Numbered from the stretch's first letter, positions 5,776 to 52,489 are shown. The stretch is DNA of 64,000 nt from Octopus vulgaris (GCA_951406725.2 OX597822.1:38006001-38070000); one strand, 5' to 3'. Notes: generated from the letters alone by a model not told the origin. A program made the numbers and translations.

Positions 5776-6632
5776 TCTCTCTCTCTCTCTCTCTCTCTCT
5801 CTCGCTATATATATATATATATATATATATATATATATATATATATATATATATATATATATATATACTAGACCTTCATCGAGTAATAAAAAACGTCCAT
5901 GCCAAATTTTATACACATTGATCTAGTGGTTTGGCCGTGCATAGAGAAAACACACACAGTGTATTTTATATATATATTCACAGACACGCCCACTGGCGTA
6001 TACGCATACACACGATCGCACACATATACACACATGCACGAAAAAATATATGTATACTTCCAATAGTAATAGAATAAAAATATATTTCTAAGATCTATGT
6101 ATATGACCGCGCACGCGTTGTGCTTATTATATCTACATACATACATATACATTTATGGATGTATCTCTTTCTCTCTTTTACTTGTTTCAGTCATTTGATG
6201 GCCATGCTGGATTATATATATATATATATATATATATATATATATATATATACATATACATTTATGGATGTATACATATATATATATATATATATATATA
6301 TATATATATATATATATATATATATATATATATATAGTTATCCGTAATAATGAAGGGTGAAATTAATTAATTTGGAATAATTATCAATTACACCAAGTAG
6401 TCTTCGGCATGTAAAAGCCTCATTCGAGGAAAATTTAAGTAATACTAAGCAATAAAGGGTTTAGCAACGAATTGCCTTACCACAGACCGAATTTAGAAAT
6501 AGCAGTCAAAGAGTTATAGCTATTTCTTCTACTAAAAAGGAGATCTCAGTAAAAAACACAGCAATTGGAAGGCAGACACAAACAGGTAAGAGAGAATGAA
6601 TTGACGGCAATCTATCATACAATTTTAAGTTA

Positions 6633-6732
6633 TCTACGGACGCACGTTTCGAAATCAAGTTTTTAGAAAAGCATAAGAATTAAATATTAAATAATTCTAC
6701 GTTACCCAAACTTCTTTTCTCTTCAGCGTAGA
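6633..6732 (-). ncRNA. Type I hammerhead ribozyme motif
   Basis: Reverse complement of the 6827-6926 motif: tctacg-CTGAAGA-long insert-GAAAC-gtgc-GTC-cgtaga. Confidence 0.7.
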
Positions 6733-6826
6733 ATACTATAATCATAAATGATTATATATTGAATTTTGAGATACTCAAAATTCAATATCTCAAAATTCAA
6801 TATATAATCATTTATGATTATAGTAT

Positions 6827-6926
6827 TCTACGCTGAAGAGAAAAGAAGTTTGGGTAACGTAGAATTATTTAATATTTAATTCTTATGCTTTCCTAAAAAC
6901 TTGATTTCGAAACGTGCGTCCGTAGA
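6827..6926 (+). ncRNA. Type I hammerhead ribozyme motif
   Basis: Stem I tctacg(6827-32)/cgtaga(6921-26); CTGAAGA 6833-39; G...C closing a ~69-nt stem II region; GAAAC 6909-13, gtgc, GTC cleavage triplet 6918-20. Confidence 0.7.
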
Positions 6927-9140
6927 TAACTTAAAATTGTATGATAGATTGCCGTCAATTCATTCTCTCTTACCTGTTTGTGTCTGCCTTCCAATTGCTG
7001 TGTTTTTTACTGAGATCTCCCTTTTTTAGTAGAAGAAATAGCTATAACTCTTTGACTGCTATTTCTAAATTCGGTCTGTGGTAAGGCAATTCGTTGCTAA
7101 ACCCTTTATTGCTTAGTATATATATATATATATATATATATATATATATATATATATATATATATATATATATATATATATATATATATATATATATACG
7201 GTACAGATATACATACACACACACACATATATATATATGTCATATATACAATATATATATATTCATAGAAATGTAATCATATATATATACACTATATATA
7301 TGCATATATATATATATAGATCTGTATATATAATATCAATATAATCCATACGCATGAATATTAATCCGTGAATTTGCTAGACATATTTATGAAGATATGC
7401 ATATACGTATGTATGAGTATATATATATATATATATATATATATATATATATATATCATTGCATGTCTGTTTGTATGTGCATGTGTGTGTTTGTGTGTGT
7501 GAGAGTGTGTGCATATGTGTATGTGTGTGTGCGCGCACGCGTGTGTGCATATGTAAAGGAAAGATAAAATGCTCCATTGTTCGAATGTTGAAAGCAAATT
7601 TATACGTATATATATTTAGATAATGTATGGATGGATGTAGTGGTGGATGGTGGATGTGTGTGTATATATATATACACATATACATGGAAACAGGGAGAGA
7701 ACGTTACAAAATTCTTCACGCGTGTTTTGGTGGCTATTGCAATGTACTTCTGGTAATGTGAATATCCAAGATTACGTAAGAAAGCTCTTAGTTAATCTGC
7801 TTTGTTAGTCAGCGAAACACGTGTAAAGACGCTACAAATAAATGCTTTCAGGGTTCCACATTATTATCCCCAGACATGATATGTGTATGTGGACCGTAAT
7901 TTTTATTACGCAAATAGACCGCTAGCATGACGCTTCGTTAGAACATCATTGATTATGTTCACAGGCTCTTTCACAACATTAATATGTGACATAAGCGGAT
8001 TGAAGGTTAAGCATTCGAACACCGTAACATACTTTACAAACATTATCTGCACACGTGTATGTGTAACAGAGAGAGAGAGAGAGAGAGAGAGAGAGAGAGA
8101 GAGAGTGTGTGTGTGTGTGTGTGTGTACATACATATATGTATACATATATATATATATATACATGAATATCTACATATATATAGATATATATATATAAAC
8201 ATATATATACATATGTGTATGTATATATATATATATACACACATATATGTATATATAAATATATATATATATATATCACGTGATCACATGACCGACCAGA
8301 CTATCGGACGTTGTTACACATCGCTGGTCACAATGTCCTTTACATCGTTTTGACCTTCGAATAAAGACACTCGGCTGGCTATATATATATATATATATAT
8401 ATATATATATATATATATATATATATATATATATACATGAATACGTACATACATACATACGCGAGCGCGCACACACACTTTATCGATACCTCTATGAAAG
8501 GCTATCTCCAACCGCCACTCATCAGTGAATGACTTAACAAAGACTAATTCTAAATGTTTCTTTTGATTTGCAGAGTTTGTCTCACTGGCCATAGTGTGGC
8601 ATTCACGCGGTCGATCTTTCTGCCATTTAATCACACTTAATTCTTTATTGTATGACTTCTGGGCCTGAAACCTCCAATAATTGTTCAGCGTTCGCTTACA
8701 GATTAGCTACCACAAAAGAATTAAATTCAATATATACTCAATACATCTGGTTCCGTCATACATACACTAAAGTTCTCTCTCTCTCTCTCTCTCTCTCTCT
8801 CTCTCTCTCTCTCTCTCTCTCTCTCTCTCTCTCTCACACACACACACACACACATACATACATACATATATATATTTATTTTTATTTATTTATTTATATA
8901 TTTATATATATTTCATTTCATTTCATTTGGGTTTGAGTCCATGCTCAGGCCAAGTCGAAGACTCCACCCTCATATATATATATACATATATGTGTATCTA
9001 TCTTTATATATGTGTGCGCGAACGCGCTCGTATCTATATCTGTGTAACTGTCTATCTGTCTATCTATTTAACTATCTATCTAGCTGGCTAGCTAACTGTG
9101 TATGTGTGTGTGTGCTTCTTTCTTTAACTTTTATCTTTTT

Positions 9141-9742
9141 AAACAACGAAGTGTCAGCACGAAGCAGTGTTTAGGTATGAGCAGAATTTAGGCTAGTTAA
9201 AATATGCTTGTCACATATTTCAACTGCTAAAAGACAAACACACTCCAGTTGCCGTGGAGAAAATATCTTTCTTATGGTAAAAAGGTGTGAAAACGCTTGG
9301 TTCGTTCAATGCCACCATCTATTAGGAATCCCAGATAAAGATGTTTCGAGTTTTTTGGCTCTTGTCAATGAGTTGTATCTAAGAGAGGCAACTCTGAACG
9401 AACTTCATAAAGTCGTAGCTTTGTATATAATTCAGTCAACACCGTCAACTGGTTTGCGTTAAGTAGATCGCCCGATCGAGGTAAACGACGAAGCGTTAGC
9501 GCGAAGCAGTGTTTAGATATGAGCAGAATTTCGGCTTGCTAAAAGGTACATCTCCTTCACAAGAGTCAAAAATCTCGAAACACCGATGTCTGGGATTCTT
9601 AATAGATGGTGACACTGAACGAACCGGGTGTTTTCAAACCTTTTTATCATAAGAGATTTTTTTTTTCTCCACGGTAACTGTTGTCTATTTGCCATTTAGC
9701 AGTTGAAATATGTGACAGACATATTTCCACTAGCCTAAATTT
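9141..9742. repeat. Composite direct plus inverted repeat element
   Basis: 9141-9203 is repeated directly at 9483-9544; 9184-9380 recurs as a diverged inverted copy at 9544-9742 (the ORFs 9208+ and 9695- translate to similar peptides). Confidence 0.75.
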
Positions 9743-50393: not shown

Positions 50394-50475
50394 TTTTGGG
50401 ACAATTGTTTCGCTATTAATGAATTAAATGTAATTTTACTTACAAAAAAATCCACTTGTAGCTCGTCAGCCAAAA
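50394..50475 (-). ncRNA. Type I hammerhead ribozyme motif
   Basis: ttttgg-CTGACGA-gcta...tagc-GAAAC-aatt-GTC-ccaaaa on the minus strand. Confidence 0.8.
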
Positions 50476-50929
50476 CTATCTGGATGAAATCCACTCAATC
50501 ACACGCCAGATTTTACCATAACGATAAATACGCGTGTGGTTCAATTGATTACATCCGACGTTATAATTCAAATGCCCCAACTAACAGCGCGCCAAACTTT
50601 CACGGAAAACAAATACAGCATTTAGAAATAAATGCAGCATAATTATAATTAATTAATAAGGGTGAGAGAATTAGATACTAATTTAATAGTATATCCATTC
50701 AACACCAAGTGGCCTAGTGCTCCGAGAAACCTGGATTATTATAATATTTTATAATATATTATAATATTTTTACAAAATAAATATAAGAGAGTGGTCACTA
50801 TATGGCTCACTCTAGCACCAGTTAATCCAAAAGGTTTCAACCACTAAAAATACATGTTTCCCATGAAAGTCAGTACGATTGTTAGCTCACACGGACAGGG
50901 CAAATAAAAAATAACAAAAATACAGATTA

Positions 50930-51011
50930 TTTTGGGACAATTGTTTCGCTATTAATGAATTAAATGTAATTTTACTTACAAAAAAATCCACTTGTAGCTC
51001 GTCAGCCAAAA
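50930..51011 (-). ncRNA. Type I hammerhead ribozyme motif (tandem copy)
   Basis: Same motif, 536 nt from the 50394-50475 copy. Confidence 0.8.
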
Positions 51012-51256
51012 CTATCTGGATGAAATCCACTCAATCACACGCCAGATTTTACCATAACGATAAATACGCGTGTGGTTCAATTGATTACATCCGACGTTAT
51101 AATTCAAATGCCGCTGTATTTGTTTTCCGTGAAAGTTTGGCGCGCTGTTAGTTGGGGCATTTGAATTATAACGTCGGATGTAATCAATTGAACCACACGC
51201 GTATTTATCGTTATGGTAAAATCTGGCGTGTGATTGAGTGGATTTCATCCAGATAG

Positions 51257-51338
51257 TTTTGGCTGACGAGCTACAAGTGGATTTTTTTGTAAGTAAACTT
51301 AAATTTAATTCATTAATAGCGAAACAATTGTCCCAAAA
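51257..51338 (+). ncRNA. Type I hammerhead ribozyme motif (inverted copy)
   Basis: ttttgg 51257-62, CTGACGA 51263-69, gcta/tagc stem II with canonical G-C, GAAAC 51321-25, palindromic ACAATTGT stem III, GTC 51330-32, ccaaaa 51333-38. Confidence 0.82.
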
Positions 51339-52489
51339 TAATCTGTATTTTTGTTATTTTTTATTTGCCCTGTCCGTGTGAGCTAACAATCGTACTGACT
51401 TTCATGGGAAACATGTATTTTTAGTGGTTGAAACCTTTTGGATTAACTGGTGCTAGAGTGAGCCATATAGTGACCACTCTCTTATATTTATTTTTATATA
51501 TATATATATATATATATATATATATATATATATGTATGTATGTATGTATGTAATTATGTATGTATGTATGCATGCAAGTACGTGCGTAAATATATGGAAG
51601 ACCGCTCTGAATTCCTGACCTGTTAAGCCGATGATGATGATAGTGCTGATGACGATGAGACGAAGGGGATTAAACGCCACTGCAACAGGATAACCTTCAC
51701 CGTGATGAAGCTCTTTGGTGTTTAATCTGGTGCTTAATGCTGTAACAAGGTAGAATAGTTAGCGCACCGGGCAAAATGCTTAGTAGCGTTTCGTCCGTCT
51801 TTACATTCGGTGTTCAAATTCTGCCGAGGTCGACTCTGCCTTTCATCCCCTCGGGGTCGATGAAATGAAGTACCATTCAGATACTGGGGTCGATATAATC
51901 GACTATATCCTCTCTCTAAAAAAGTTGCTGGCCTTTTGTCAAAATTTGAAAGTTTTATTAGACTGACATTTAGAACTTAAATTAATACGGAAGGTTTTGA
52001 GTTAGGCCACTTTAAAATAAACCTATATTATAGAACAAGGGACTCTGTCAGGCATGTTGTATCAGAAGGGCTAACGAAACAAGAGTAAAGTCGACTGACC
52101 TGGAATTTGATCTCAGGCTGTTGTTGGGGTATAATGAAATATCGATTTGTAATCTAACCACAAGACCACACATTTTTATGAGGGCAGGTACAGGTAATTA
52201 TATTAACTTCAGTACTTCACTGCTGTTTTATTTTATCGACCCCCCAAAAGGATGAAAGATAAAGTTAACTCCGGTGGTATTTGAACTCCCAACTTAAAGG
52301 GACGTAAATAGTTATTGTAAACCAGTCCGGCGTTTTGCCATACTTCAAAAGAACTAAAAGTCAACGGATAGATCTCGAACCAGTAATATATCATTTGCTA
52401 TAACATCATGTTACCGGTTGTACAAAAGAAAGCTTGTTGCTTCATTGTGTTAGCGGATCATTGCATCACTATGTTACTGGTTATATAAT

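What the first reader, a model, noticed from the sequence alone, without database searches (positions are those of the whole stretch)
6338..51494. A group of (TA)n-associated, non-coding hammerhead-ribozyme elements with a shared architecture
Seen: five sequence-distinct type I hammerhead motifs (6827, 44177, 44530, 47285, 51257 and their copies), each with CTGANGA...GAAAC...GTH in order and a pairing stem I. Three hosts (6338-7119, 44422-46173, 50114-51494) have the same layout on the minus strand: inverted partial copy, then a sense ribozyme-bearing copy, then a short tail ending in (TA)n. The tails of the 6338 and 50114 elements share aagggtga...aatta...caccaagt. Established: Penelope-like elements carry minimal hammerheads in pseudo-LTRs and often insert as partial tandems with an inverted 5' copy; metazoan non-LTR retrozymes are non-coding hammerhead repeats. 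Inference: several non-autonomous ribozyme retroelement families prefer (TA)n and are mobilised by a Penelope-type RT/GIY-YIG enzyme, of which a remnant lies at 28620-29205. I cannot tell whether these families are already catalogued.
Basis: partly seen in the sequence, partly recalled or inferred. Interest (0 to 1): 0.85.

Follow-up and report, generated by a model that had tools for sequence, protein, structure and literature searches.

The report
Hydra-type Penelope ends and hammerhead retrozymes
Five repeats here carry a hammerhead (predicted self-cutting RNA) motif: two are broken-off ends of protein-coding Penelope-like jumping genes and two are young non-coding repeats likely pasted into TA microsatellites by such an enzyme, known kinds of element whose regular two-armed insertions hint at how the pasting works.

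Summary
The motifs are real: 7 type I hammerhead hits against 0.35 by chance, and stems covary across families. The grouping is half wrong. The hosts at 44422 (B) and 44088 (D) are 5'-truncated ends of protein-coding Hydra-clade Penelope-like elements (PLEs). Only 6338 (A, 596-nt unit) and 50114 (C, 536-nt unit) are non-coding tandem retrozymes, young (about 99% identical) and dispersed; 47285 (E) is old and unresolved. All four resolved families have two fixed 3' ends 70-130 nt apart, mostly abutting (TA)n. In two-armed insertions one arm ends short and the other long (25 of 30 for A and C), the arms share private variants, and either arm can be the longer. This fits priming on both target strands at two internal RNA start sites. 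The 28635 remnant is Hydra-type but decayed; intact Hydra and Neptune families exist elsewhere. No coding partner sharing the A/C tail was found; cleavage and RNA circles are untested. Retrozymes as non-autonomous PLEs, Hydra PLEs in octopus, (TA)n targeting, inverted arms and one-sided tails are published. Unusual: 50-70-nt stem II inserts that Rfam misses. This scan found the same pattern before on other DNA of this genome.

The parts
6338..7119 (.). Family A: two-armed (head-to-head) insertion of a 596-nt non-coding tandem unit, between (TA)n runs
   Evidence: 1717 first-look candidates, 40 scored, 99-100% identity
6338..6775 (-). A long-end arm (ends about +305 after the predicted cut)
   Evidence: L001
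6338..6440 (-). A tail, between the short and long fixed ends; holds the motif shared with C
6786..7119 (+). A short-end arm (ends at +198)
   Evidence: L001
6827..6926 (+). Type I hammerhead of A: 6-bp stem I, 69-nt stem II region, 4-nt loop III, predicted cut after 6920
6633..6732 (-). Second copy of the A hammerhead
28635..29150 (+). Decayed Hydra-clade PLE remnant (end of RT region and GIY-YIG-type endonuclease), with stops and frameshifts
   Evidence: single copy at DNA level
44088..44226 (-). Family D: single 5'-truncated arm (long end) of a young coding Hydra PLE, between (TA)n runs
44177..44225 (-). Hammerhead of D: short stem II opening with U.U, 4-bp stem III, like published Hydra motifs
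44422..45993 (-). Family B long-end arm: 3' UTR and pLTR of an older coding Hydra PLE, 5'-truncated before the ORF
44529..44614 (-). Hammerhead of B, 55-nt stem II region
45993..46173 (+). B short-end arm with a decayed hammerhead (GAAA to AAAA)
47285..47381 (+). Family E hammerhead-like motif: 10-bp stem II with a long loop, imperfect stem I; old family (72-81% identity), coding status unresolved
50114..51494 (.). Family C: two-armed insertion of a 536-nt non-coding tandem unit, between (TA)n runs
   Evidence: 1079 first-look candidates
50115..51112 (-). C long-end arm, 1.86 units, two hammerheads (50393-50476 and 50929-51012)
50115..50237 (-). C tail between the short (+162) and long (about +290) ends
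51113..51494 (+). C short-end arm
51256..51339 (+). Type I hammerhead of C: 7-bp stem I, 51-nt stem II region, palindromic loop III

Best explanation
B and D are 5'-truncated ends of protein-coding Hydra-clade Penelope-like elements, and A and C are young non-coding tandem repeats with hammerhead motifs (retrozymes) that are likely copied into (TA)n in trans by a Penelope-type reverse transcriptase/GIY-YIG enzyme, probably a Hydra one. Shown: family structure, two fixed 3' ends per family, (TA)n flanks, outward-facing arms, one short and one long end per insertion, shared private variants between arms, arms running through the predicted cut site for up to several units. Inferred: the enzyme nicks both strands of a (TA)n run; one nick primes cDNA at the short-end site and the other at the long-end site of the same uncleaved multimeric or circular RNA; the two 5'-truncated cDNAs are joined head to head. 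Inferred and untested: the hammerheads, most with a 2-bp stem III and palindromic loop, cut mainly as dimers in tandem transcripts and release unit-length RNA that can circularise; cutting is probably not needed for the insertion step.
For: Hammerhead hits 7 vs 0.35. In 97 distinct stem combinations found without requiring pairing, stem I positions 1-4 pair in 90-94% against 44-62% after permutation, and stem II positions 2-4 in 76-91% against 40-51%; position 2 of stem I shows four Watson-Crick pair types. B continues upstream into an ORF end with CxCx5C, CxxC and CxH; related loci show RWK, DKT and YRDD, the Hydra signature in Craig 2021. D continues into the same kind of ORF end in L381 and L168/L380. 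An intact 981-codon Hydra copy (L331) has the same anatomy: (TA)n, inverted short-end arm, pLTR, ORF, hammerhead, long end, (TA)n. A and C wrap head to tail with 596- and 536-nt periods; no PLE endonuclease profile hit in their loci. Ends next to (TA)n: A 30 of 33, C 22 of 33, background 2.8-9.1%. Short plus long ends: A 10 of 13, C 15 of 17 two-armed insertions, none long plus long (p=1.6e-4 against 0.5). Minor variants shared by both arms: A 12 of 33 within vs 14 of 448 between insertions; C 5 of 20 vs 22 of 413. The short arm reaches further 5' than the long arm in 14 of 25, which a fold-back copy could not do. Frangieh 2024: the PAc enzyme nicks and extends both strands and starts at two internal RNA sites that define the tail.
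Against: No coding element with an A- or C-type tail was found: A and C tails score no better than shuffles on the profile of 17 Hydra-B tails (A 6 of 200 shuffles as high, C 129 of 200), and Hydra tails do not fit the A-group profile; the Neptune end scored slightly better on it (7 of 200). Young intact Neptune elements that also end in (TA)n exist. Only the best 40 or 150 candidates of each search were seen, so samples are biased to young, long copies. Minimum-energy folds give the hammerhead shape for C and its stem II for E (z about -2.9) but not for A, B or D (z -1.35, 0.18, -0.64). The permutation test ignores relatedness. In Li 2026 only 1 of 9 tested frog retrozyme dimers cleaved. Five of 30 two-armed insertions break the short/long rule. 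B ends touch (TA)n in only 22 of 56.
Confidence: 0.7

Rival explanations
1. A and C are moved by a Neptune- or Naiad-clade enzyme rather than a Hydra one.
For: A young Neptune-like family with many intact 781-codon frames ends in (TA)n; its end scores 14.4 bits on the A-group tail profile, 7 of 200 shuffles as high. Craig 2021 lists (TA)n-targeting Naiads in three Octopus species.
Against: The long stem II, 4-nt palindromic loop III and roughly 110-nt tail of A and C are matched by the Hydra-B group; Neptune ends seen here have short or degenerate hammerheads. Craig 2021 says cephalopod Naiads are long inactive.
Confidence: 0.25
2. The two-armed form arises by self-priming or fold-back of one cDNA (Arkhipova 2013), or is an assembly fold-back artefact.
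For: Some junctions are near-perfect hairpins (A in the window, 460/462; several D copies). Arms of one insertion are more alike than arms of different insertions. Arkhipova 2013 reads head-to-head palindromes as self-priming on an antisense template.
Against: The arms end at different fixed sites with different flanks; the short arm reaches further 5' than the long arm in 14 of 25 cases, and the long arm holds a tail that the short arm lacks. Arms differ at about 0.4% of sites.
Confidence: 0.12
3. A and C are not independently mobile RNAs but pLTR fragments of an unfound coding PLE, expanded locally as minisatellites.
For: B and D looked non-coding in the window and proved to be truncated coding elements. 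Li 2026 discusses local tandem amplification of a PLE terminus.
Against: Arrays are short, dispersed over many contigs, 98-100% identical, each with fresh fixed ends at (TA)n and variable 5' ends; upstream of a unit lies the same unit again, up to at least five units. No endonuclease profile hit in 29 A and 27 C loci.
Confidence: 0.08
4. The hammerheads are slow or silent passengers; the template is an uncleaved read-through multimer and no circle is made (compatible with the rest of the best explanation).
For: Arms pass through the cut site and 5' ends do not pile up there (only L012 ends within 2 nt). The PAc ribozyme is dispensable for insertion in vitro and needs protein to cut. Long loop 2 may preclude the usual tertiary contact (inference).
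Against: Core and stems are kept through compensatory changes across diverged families; 57 of 97 have a perfectly palindromic stem-loop III, the mark of dimer cleavage.
Confidence: 0.3

Closest known systems
Hydra clade of C-terminal EN+ Penelope-like elements, including Hydra-1_Obim (Craig et al. 2021, PMC8557442; passages, section 11, supplement searches and supplement part 2 of 59 read)
   Same: RWK, DKT, CxCx5C linker, CxxC and CxH motifs; (TA)n insertion; type I hammerhead near the 3' end, often with U.U opening stem II; inverted 5'-truncated copy; tail at one end only.
   Different: The B group has 48-63-nt stem II regions (listed Hydra loops are 3-10 nt), tails of about 110 nt (30-40 bp in the paper), ORFs up to 980-1090 codons with N-rich inserts, and 3' UTRs over 1 kb. 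Short motifs from the A, B, C and D hammerheads and the B tail were not found in the supplement (line breaks could hide a match).
Metazoan non-LTR retrozymes (Cervera and de la Pena 2020, PMC7229834, passages read; Li, Clavereau and Pollet, bioRxiv 10.64898/2026.07.22.740005, parts 1-3 of 5 read, supplements closed)
   Same: Non-coding tandem units of a few hundred bases, one type I hammerhead per unit, low GC, co-occurring with PLEs and proposed to be non-autonomous PLE derivatives.
   Different: Units of 536-596 nt (170-400 nt in the 2020 paper, 51-972 in the 2026 one); long stem II inserts; full PLE insertion signature with fixed ends and inverted arms, which the passages read do not describe; no cephalopod in either sample as far as read; RNA circles not shown here.
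PAc (Poseidon of Anolis carolinensis; Frangieh et al. 2024, PMC11167929, parts 1-2 of 4 read)
   Same: Two RT start sites inside the RNA define the tail; AT-rich target; both strands nicked and extended.
   Different: Different clade; tail 30-40 nt; no test in trans on a non-coding RNA; the one-short-one-long rule is not quantified in the parts read.
Non-autonomous Chlamys elements such as MRC1 (Craig et al. 2021, passage read)
   Same: Non-coding PLE passengers with pLTRs and multicopy head-to-tail insertions.
   Different: They share 3' sequence with their autonomous partners and lack canonical hammerheads; here no partner with a matching 3' end was found.

Membership tests
Type I hammerhead ribozyme | Core CUGANGA, GAAA, NUH in order with stems I, II and III | tested here: met
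   A, B, C, D pass; E has an imperfect stem I in this copy
Type I hammerhead ribozyme | Covariation in stems I and II across related elements | tested here: met
   relatedness not controlled
Type I hammerhead ribozyme | Match to an Rfam hammerhead model | tested here: not met
   0 matches at gathering score in the window; long stem II inserts are the likely reason (inference)
Type I hammerhead ribozyme | Self-cleavage at NUH | not testable with these tools
   needs in vitro assay
Hydra-clade PLE (families B, D, remnant) | C-terminal GIY-YIG-type endonuclease with CxCx5C linker, CxxC and CxH, no CCHH | tested here: met
   B; D; remnant by its closest relatives:
Hydra-clade PLE (families B, D, remnant) | RT with RWK and DKT motifs | tested here: met
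   met for the B group (L254, L331); RT of D not reached
Hydra-clade PLE (families B, D, remnant) | (TA)n insertion, pLTR, hammerhead near the 3' end | tested here: met
Hydra-clade PLE (families B, D, remnant) | Placement in the Hydra clade on an RT tree with reference sequences | not tested
   reference proteins were seen only as text in a supplement
Non-LTR retrozyme (families A, C) | Non-coding tandem units, each with a type I hammerhead | tested here: met
Non-LTR retrozyme (families A, C) | Dispersed, recently mobile copies | tested here: met
Non-LTR retrozyme (families A, C) | Expressed as unit-length linear and circular RNA | not testable with these tools
   only assembled contigs of runs of unrecorded kind were available
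Non-LTR retrozyme (families A, C) | Sequence kinship to the pLTR of an autonomous PLE (Li 2026) | tested here: inconclusive
   no partner among the Hydra and Neptune loci fetched; most candidates unseen
Non-LTR retrozyme (families B, D) | Non-coding tandem unit | tested here: not met
   both continue upstream into an ORF

The most novel reading that the evidence does not exclude
Every two-armed insertion of these elements, coding or not, is made in one event in which a Penelope-type enzyme dimer primes both strands of a (TA)n run at two different start sites on one circular or multimeric RNA; the short non-coding families A and C would then be minimal natural substrates for resolving how PLE inversions and tails form and how retrozyme circles re-enter the genome, and the long-stem-II hammerheads a class of some tens of thousands of genomic copies that standard models miss.
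Probability: 0.45. Interest if true: 0.65.

Novelty: new member of a known kind. Interest (0 to 1): 0.42.

Why it matters
How Penelope-like elements make their inverted arms and one-sided tails, and which enzyme moves animal retrozymes, are open questions (Craig 2021; Cervera 2020; Li 2026). These young families give exact start sites, a counted short/long rule and 0.5-0.6-kb templates for an in vitro test with intact Hydra or Neptune enzymes from the same genome. For annotation: the Hydra ORF tested gave no Pfam match and the hammerheads no Rfam match, so a large repeat class is easy to miss or mislabel as non-coding.

Tried and rejected
Rfam: no match at gathering score; the weak list was filled by microsatellite matches. 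Pfam on 12 frames of the remnant, the 27400-28200 region and the B interior: nothing significant. The remnant was first tested on the minus strand and against Neptune proteins, with no hit; it reads on the plus strand. Its 47-bit profile score is circular, since the profile came from loci found with the remnant itself. The 7.3 kb between two A copies on C2 holds a LINE-type fragment and simple repeats, not a PLE. Search for a partner of A/C: 30+10+20 Neptune-type loci, 51+20 Hydra-B loci and 29 canonical-Hydra loci held no element ending in an A/C tail; matches were nested insertions. The A-like family of L102 is another non-coding tandem unit. E could be extended only about 150 nt upstream, no ORF. 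5' ends at the predicted cut site: not enriched. Sequencing runs: no RNA holder listed; contigs of four runs laid on A cover it in pieces and cannot show RNA. The repeat finder direct-repeat output was swamped by microsatellites. The one search count for C misplaces the short end because the alignment ran into the TA run; one search gives +162. Rows dropped before the arm counts: 6 of 30 A loci and 7 of 30 C loci that overlapped another locus, L028 (interrupted duplicate of L026), and L044 and L046 (arm cut by the locus edge).
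Full report
Setting. The window lies in a 2.8-Gb animal genome of 227 contigs, 35% GC, with 183 (TA)5+ runs in 64 kb. It looks octopus-like; that is my inference from the microsatellite load and from the likeness of one element found here to Hydra-1_Obim as printed in a supplement.

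Observation. A scan for type I hammerheads finds 7 hits against 0.35 expected (maximum 2 in 60 shuffles): two in A (6338-7119), one each in D (44177) and B (44530), three in C (50114-51494). E (47285) has the core and a perfect 10-bp stem II, but an imperfect stem I in this copy. A, B, C and E have 51-69 nt between CUGANGA and GAAA, and a 2-bp stem III with a 4-nt loop; D has a short stem II and a 4-bp stem III. Rfam gives nothing at gathering score. Pooling all loci fetched, 313 motif-anchored hits (pairing not required) reduce to 97 distinct stem combinations: stem I positions 1-4 pair in 90, 94, 94 and 90% (permuted means 53, 44, 62, 51), stem II positions 2-4 in 91, 90 and 76% (43, 51, 40); the first stem II position does not (49% vs 49%; U.U in 36). 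Stem-loop III is a perfect palindrome in 57 of 97. The permutation ignores relatedness, but whole stems differ between families while still pairing. Folding alone is weak support: z -2.9 for C and E, not significant for A, B, D.

A and C are non-coding tandem units. A has 1717 first-look candidates and C 1079; the 40 scored in each are 99-100% identical and spread over many contigs (these are not copy numbers and favour young copies). Upstream of a unit lies the same unit: periods 596 and 536 nt, at least five units in one C array. PLE endonuclease profiles found nothing in 29 A and 27 C loci.

B and D are ends of coding elements. B (4771 candidates, 83-88% identity) was extended 5' through other copies into an ORF end with CxCx5C, a YIG-type motif, CxxC and CxH. 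That protein has 18,517 first-look candidates; related loci show RWK, DKT and YRDD. These are the Hydra features in Craig 2021 section 11. A young subgroup has open frames of about 980 and 1090 codons; L331 is complete: (TA)n, inverted short-end arm, pLTR, ORF, 1.6-kb 3' region, long-stem-II hammerhead, long end, (TA)n. D (827 candidates, 98%) continues into the same kind of ORF end in L381 and L168/L380, and its hammerhead resembles the published Hydra list. E (644 candidates, 72-81%) could not be resolved.

The remnant. It reads on the + strand from 28635. As a protein query it retrieves 150 scored loci, best E 1.3e-8, whose translations are canonical Hydra RT ends and endonucleases, among them a young 717-codon family. 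By DNA it has one distant relative, so it is old and cannot be what moved A and C. A young Neptune-like family with intact 781-codon frames also exists.

Ends and arms. Measured from the predicted cut, A ends at about +198 or +293-308, C at +162 or +285-294, B at +31-45 or +124-145, D at about +20 or +90. Tails are thus about 105, 130, 100 and 70 nt, against 30-40 bp in Craig 2021. Ends lie within 6 nt of (TA)4+ in 30 of 33 for A and 22 of 33 for C (an undercount: the alignment often ran into the run), against 9.1% of all window positions and 2.8% of positions outside runs; for the older B, 22 of 56. In two-armed insertions the 5' ends abut and the 3' ends face out. One arm is short and the other long in 10 of 13 A and 15 of 17 C insertions, none long+long (p=1.6e-4). 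Where the first arm was mostly long by selection, the second was short in 11 of 11 D and the pair was short+long in 10 of 10 B loci, and in 5 of 5 Hydra loci with both ends placed. The short arm reaches further 5' in 6 of 10 A and 8 of 15 C cases, so it is not a copy of the long arm, and the long arm holds a tail the short arm lacks. 5' ends are scattered; only L012 ends at the cut.

Mechanism. Frangieh 2024 showed that a purified PLE enzyme nicks and extends both strands of AT-rich DNA, starts at two internal RNA sites that bracket the tail, is predicted to be a dimer, and does not need ribozyme cleavage. Applied here (inference): each nick in (TA)n primes at one of the two sites on one RNA, and the truncated cDNAs are joined head to head. 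Because arms run through the cut site, the template would be an uncleaved multimer or a circle; these data cannot tell which. Palindromic loop III suggests dimer-dependent cleavage (Cervera 2014, PMC4209133, passages). The partner of A and C is unproven: hammerhead form and tail length point to Hydra, but tail sequence matches neither the Hydra-B group nor, clearly, Neptune, and only the top 40-150 candidates of each search were seen.

Known and new. Published: retrozymes with PLEs as likely movers (Cervera 2020, passages), retrozymes as non-autonomous PLE derivatives (Li 2026, parts 1-3 of 5; supplements closed), Hydra PLEs with (TA)n targeting and hammerheads including one in Octopus (Craig 2021), inverted arms with a one-sided tail (Craig 2021; Arkhipova 2013, PMC3846280, passages), paired opposite-strand hammerheads, U.U at the base of stem II (Perreault 2011, PMC3088659, passages). 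A 2026 Octopus vulgaris repeat annotation lists 31 recently active Penelope-like families and has no occurrence of 'ribozyme' or 'Hydra' in its main text (PMC13282606, passages; its library was not seen and may hold these families). Eight searches listed no paper whose title or abstract start describes cephalopod retrozymes, long-stem-II PLE hammerheads or a counted short/long rule; Repbase and Dfam could not be searched, and one plant PLE in the Craig supplement has a 35-nt loop 2. Four long-stem-II motifs in 246 kb of loci picked for another reason suggest some tens of thousands genome-wide, a rough figure. Earlier notes of this scan report the same architecture and rule for other families in this genome; no look-alike of A or C was indexed. 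These notes are not independent support.

Verdict. Real, mostly a known kind of system, with two of the five motifs reassigned to coding Hydra PLEs. New families and a clean mechanistic pattern. Interest 0.42.

Noticed in passing
L331, L330-L345 (G000, several contigs): Young Hydra PLE subgroups with open frames of about 980 and 1090 codons and long asparagine-rich inserts between RT and endonuclease; the one ORF tested had no Pfam match.
   Followed up: partly
L384 (G000:C1:57207000-57216000): A second young Hydra family (717 codons) in a 2.58-kb tandem array; its hammerhead core reads CCGAAGA instead of CUGANGA, and its tail is about 70 nt.
   Followed up: partly
L150-L155: Young Neptune-like PLE with a 781-codon RT/GIY-YIG frame, an upstream ORF and a degenerate hammerhead core, ending in (TA)n.
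   Followed up: partly
L166, L296, L301, L068, L324: Further non-coding A-like families (588 nt, about 560 nt and more diverged) with the same tail; several have a CCGATGA core.
   Followed up: partly
window 27400-28200, +: Decayed non-LTR reverse transcriptase fragment, R4/Dong-like by eye (recalled label); no Pfam match.
   Followed up: no
window about 32430-33660, -: Looks by eye like a Tc1/mariner transposase remnant (label recalled).
   Followed up: no
window 30721-31149: 53-bp minisatellite, 8.1 copies, 93% matches.
   Followed up: no
window 39145-39377 and 39498-39730: 233-nt inverted repeat, 97% complementary, microsatellite-rich, no hammerhead hit.
   Followed up: no
window 10417-10591, 12904-13086, 46232-46516; 14332-14625: Dispersed SINE-like copies at 85-86% identity, and a 146-bp tandem pair.
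   Followed up: no
L166, L068, L370, L372: Different families are often nested end to end in one (TA)n run.
   Followed up: no
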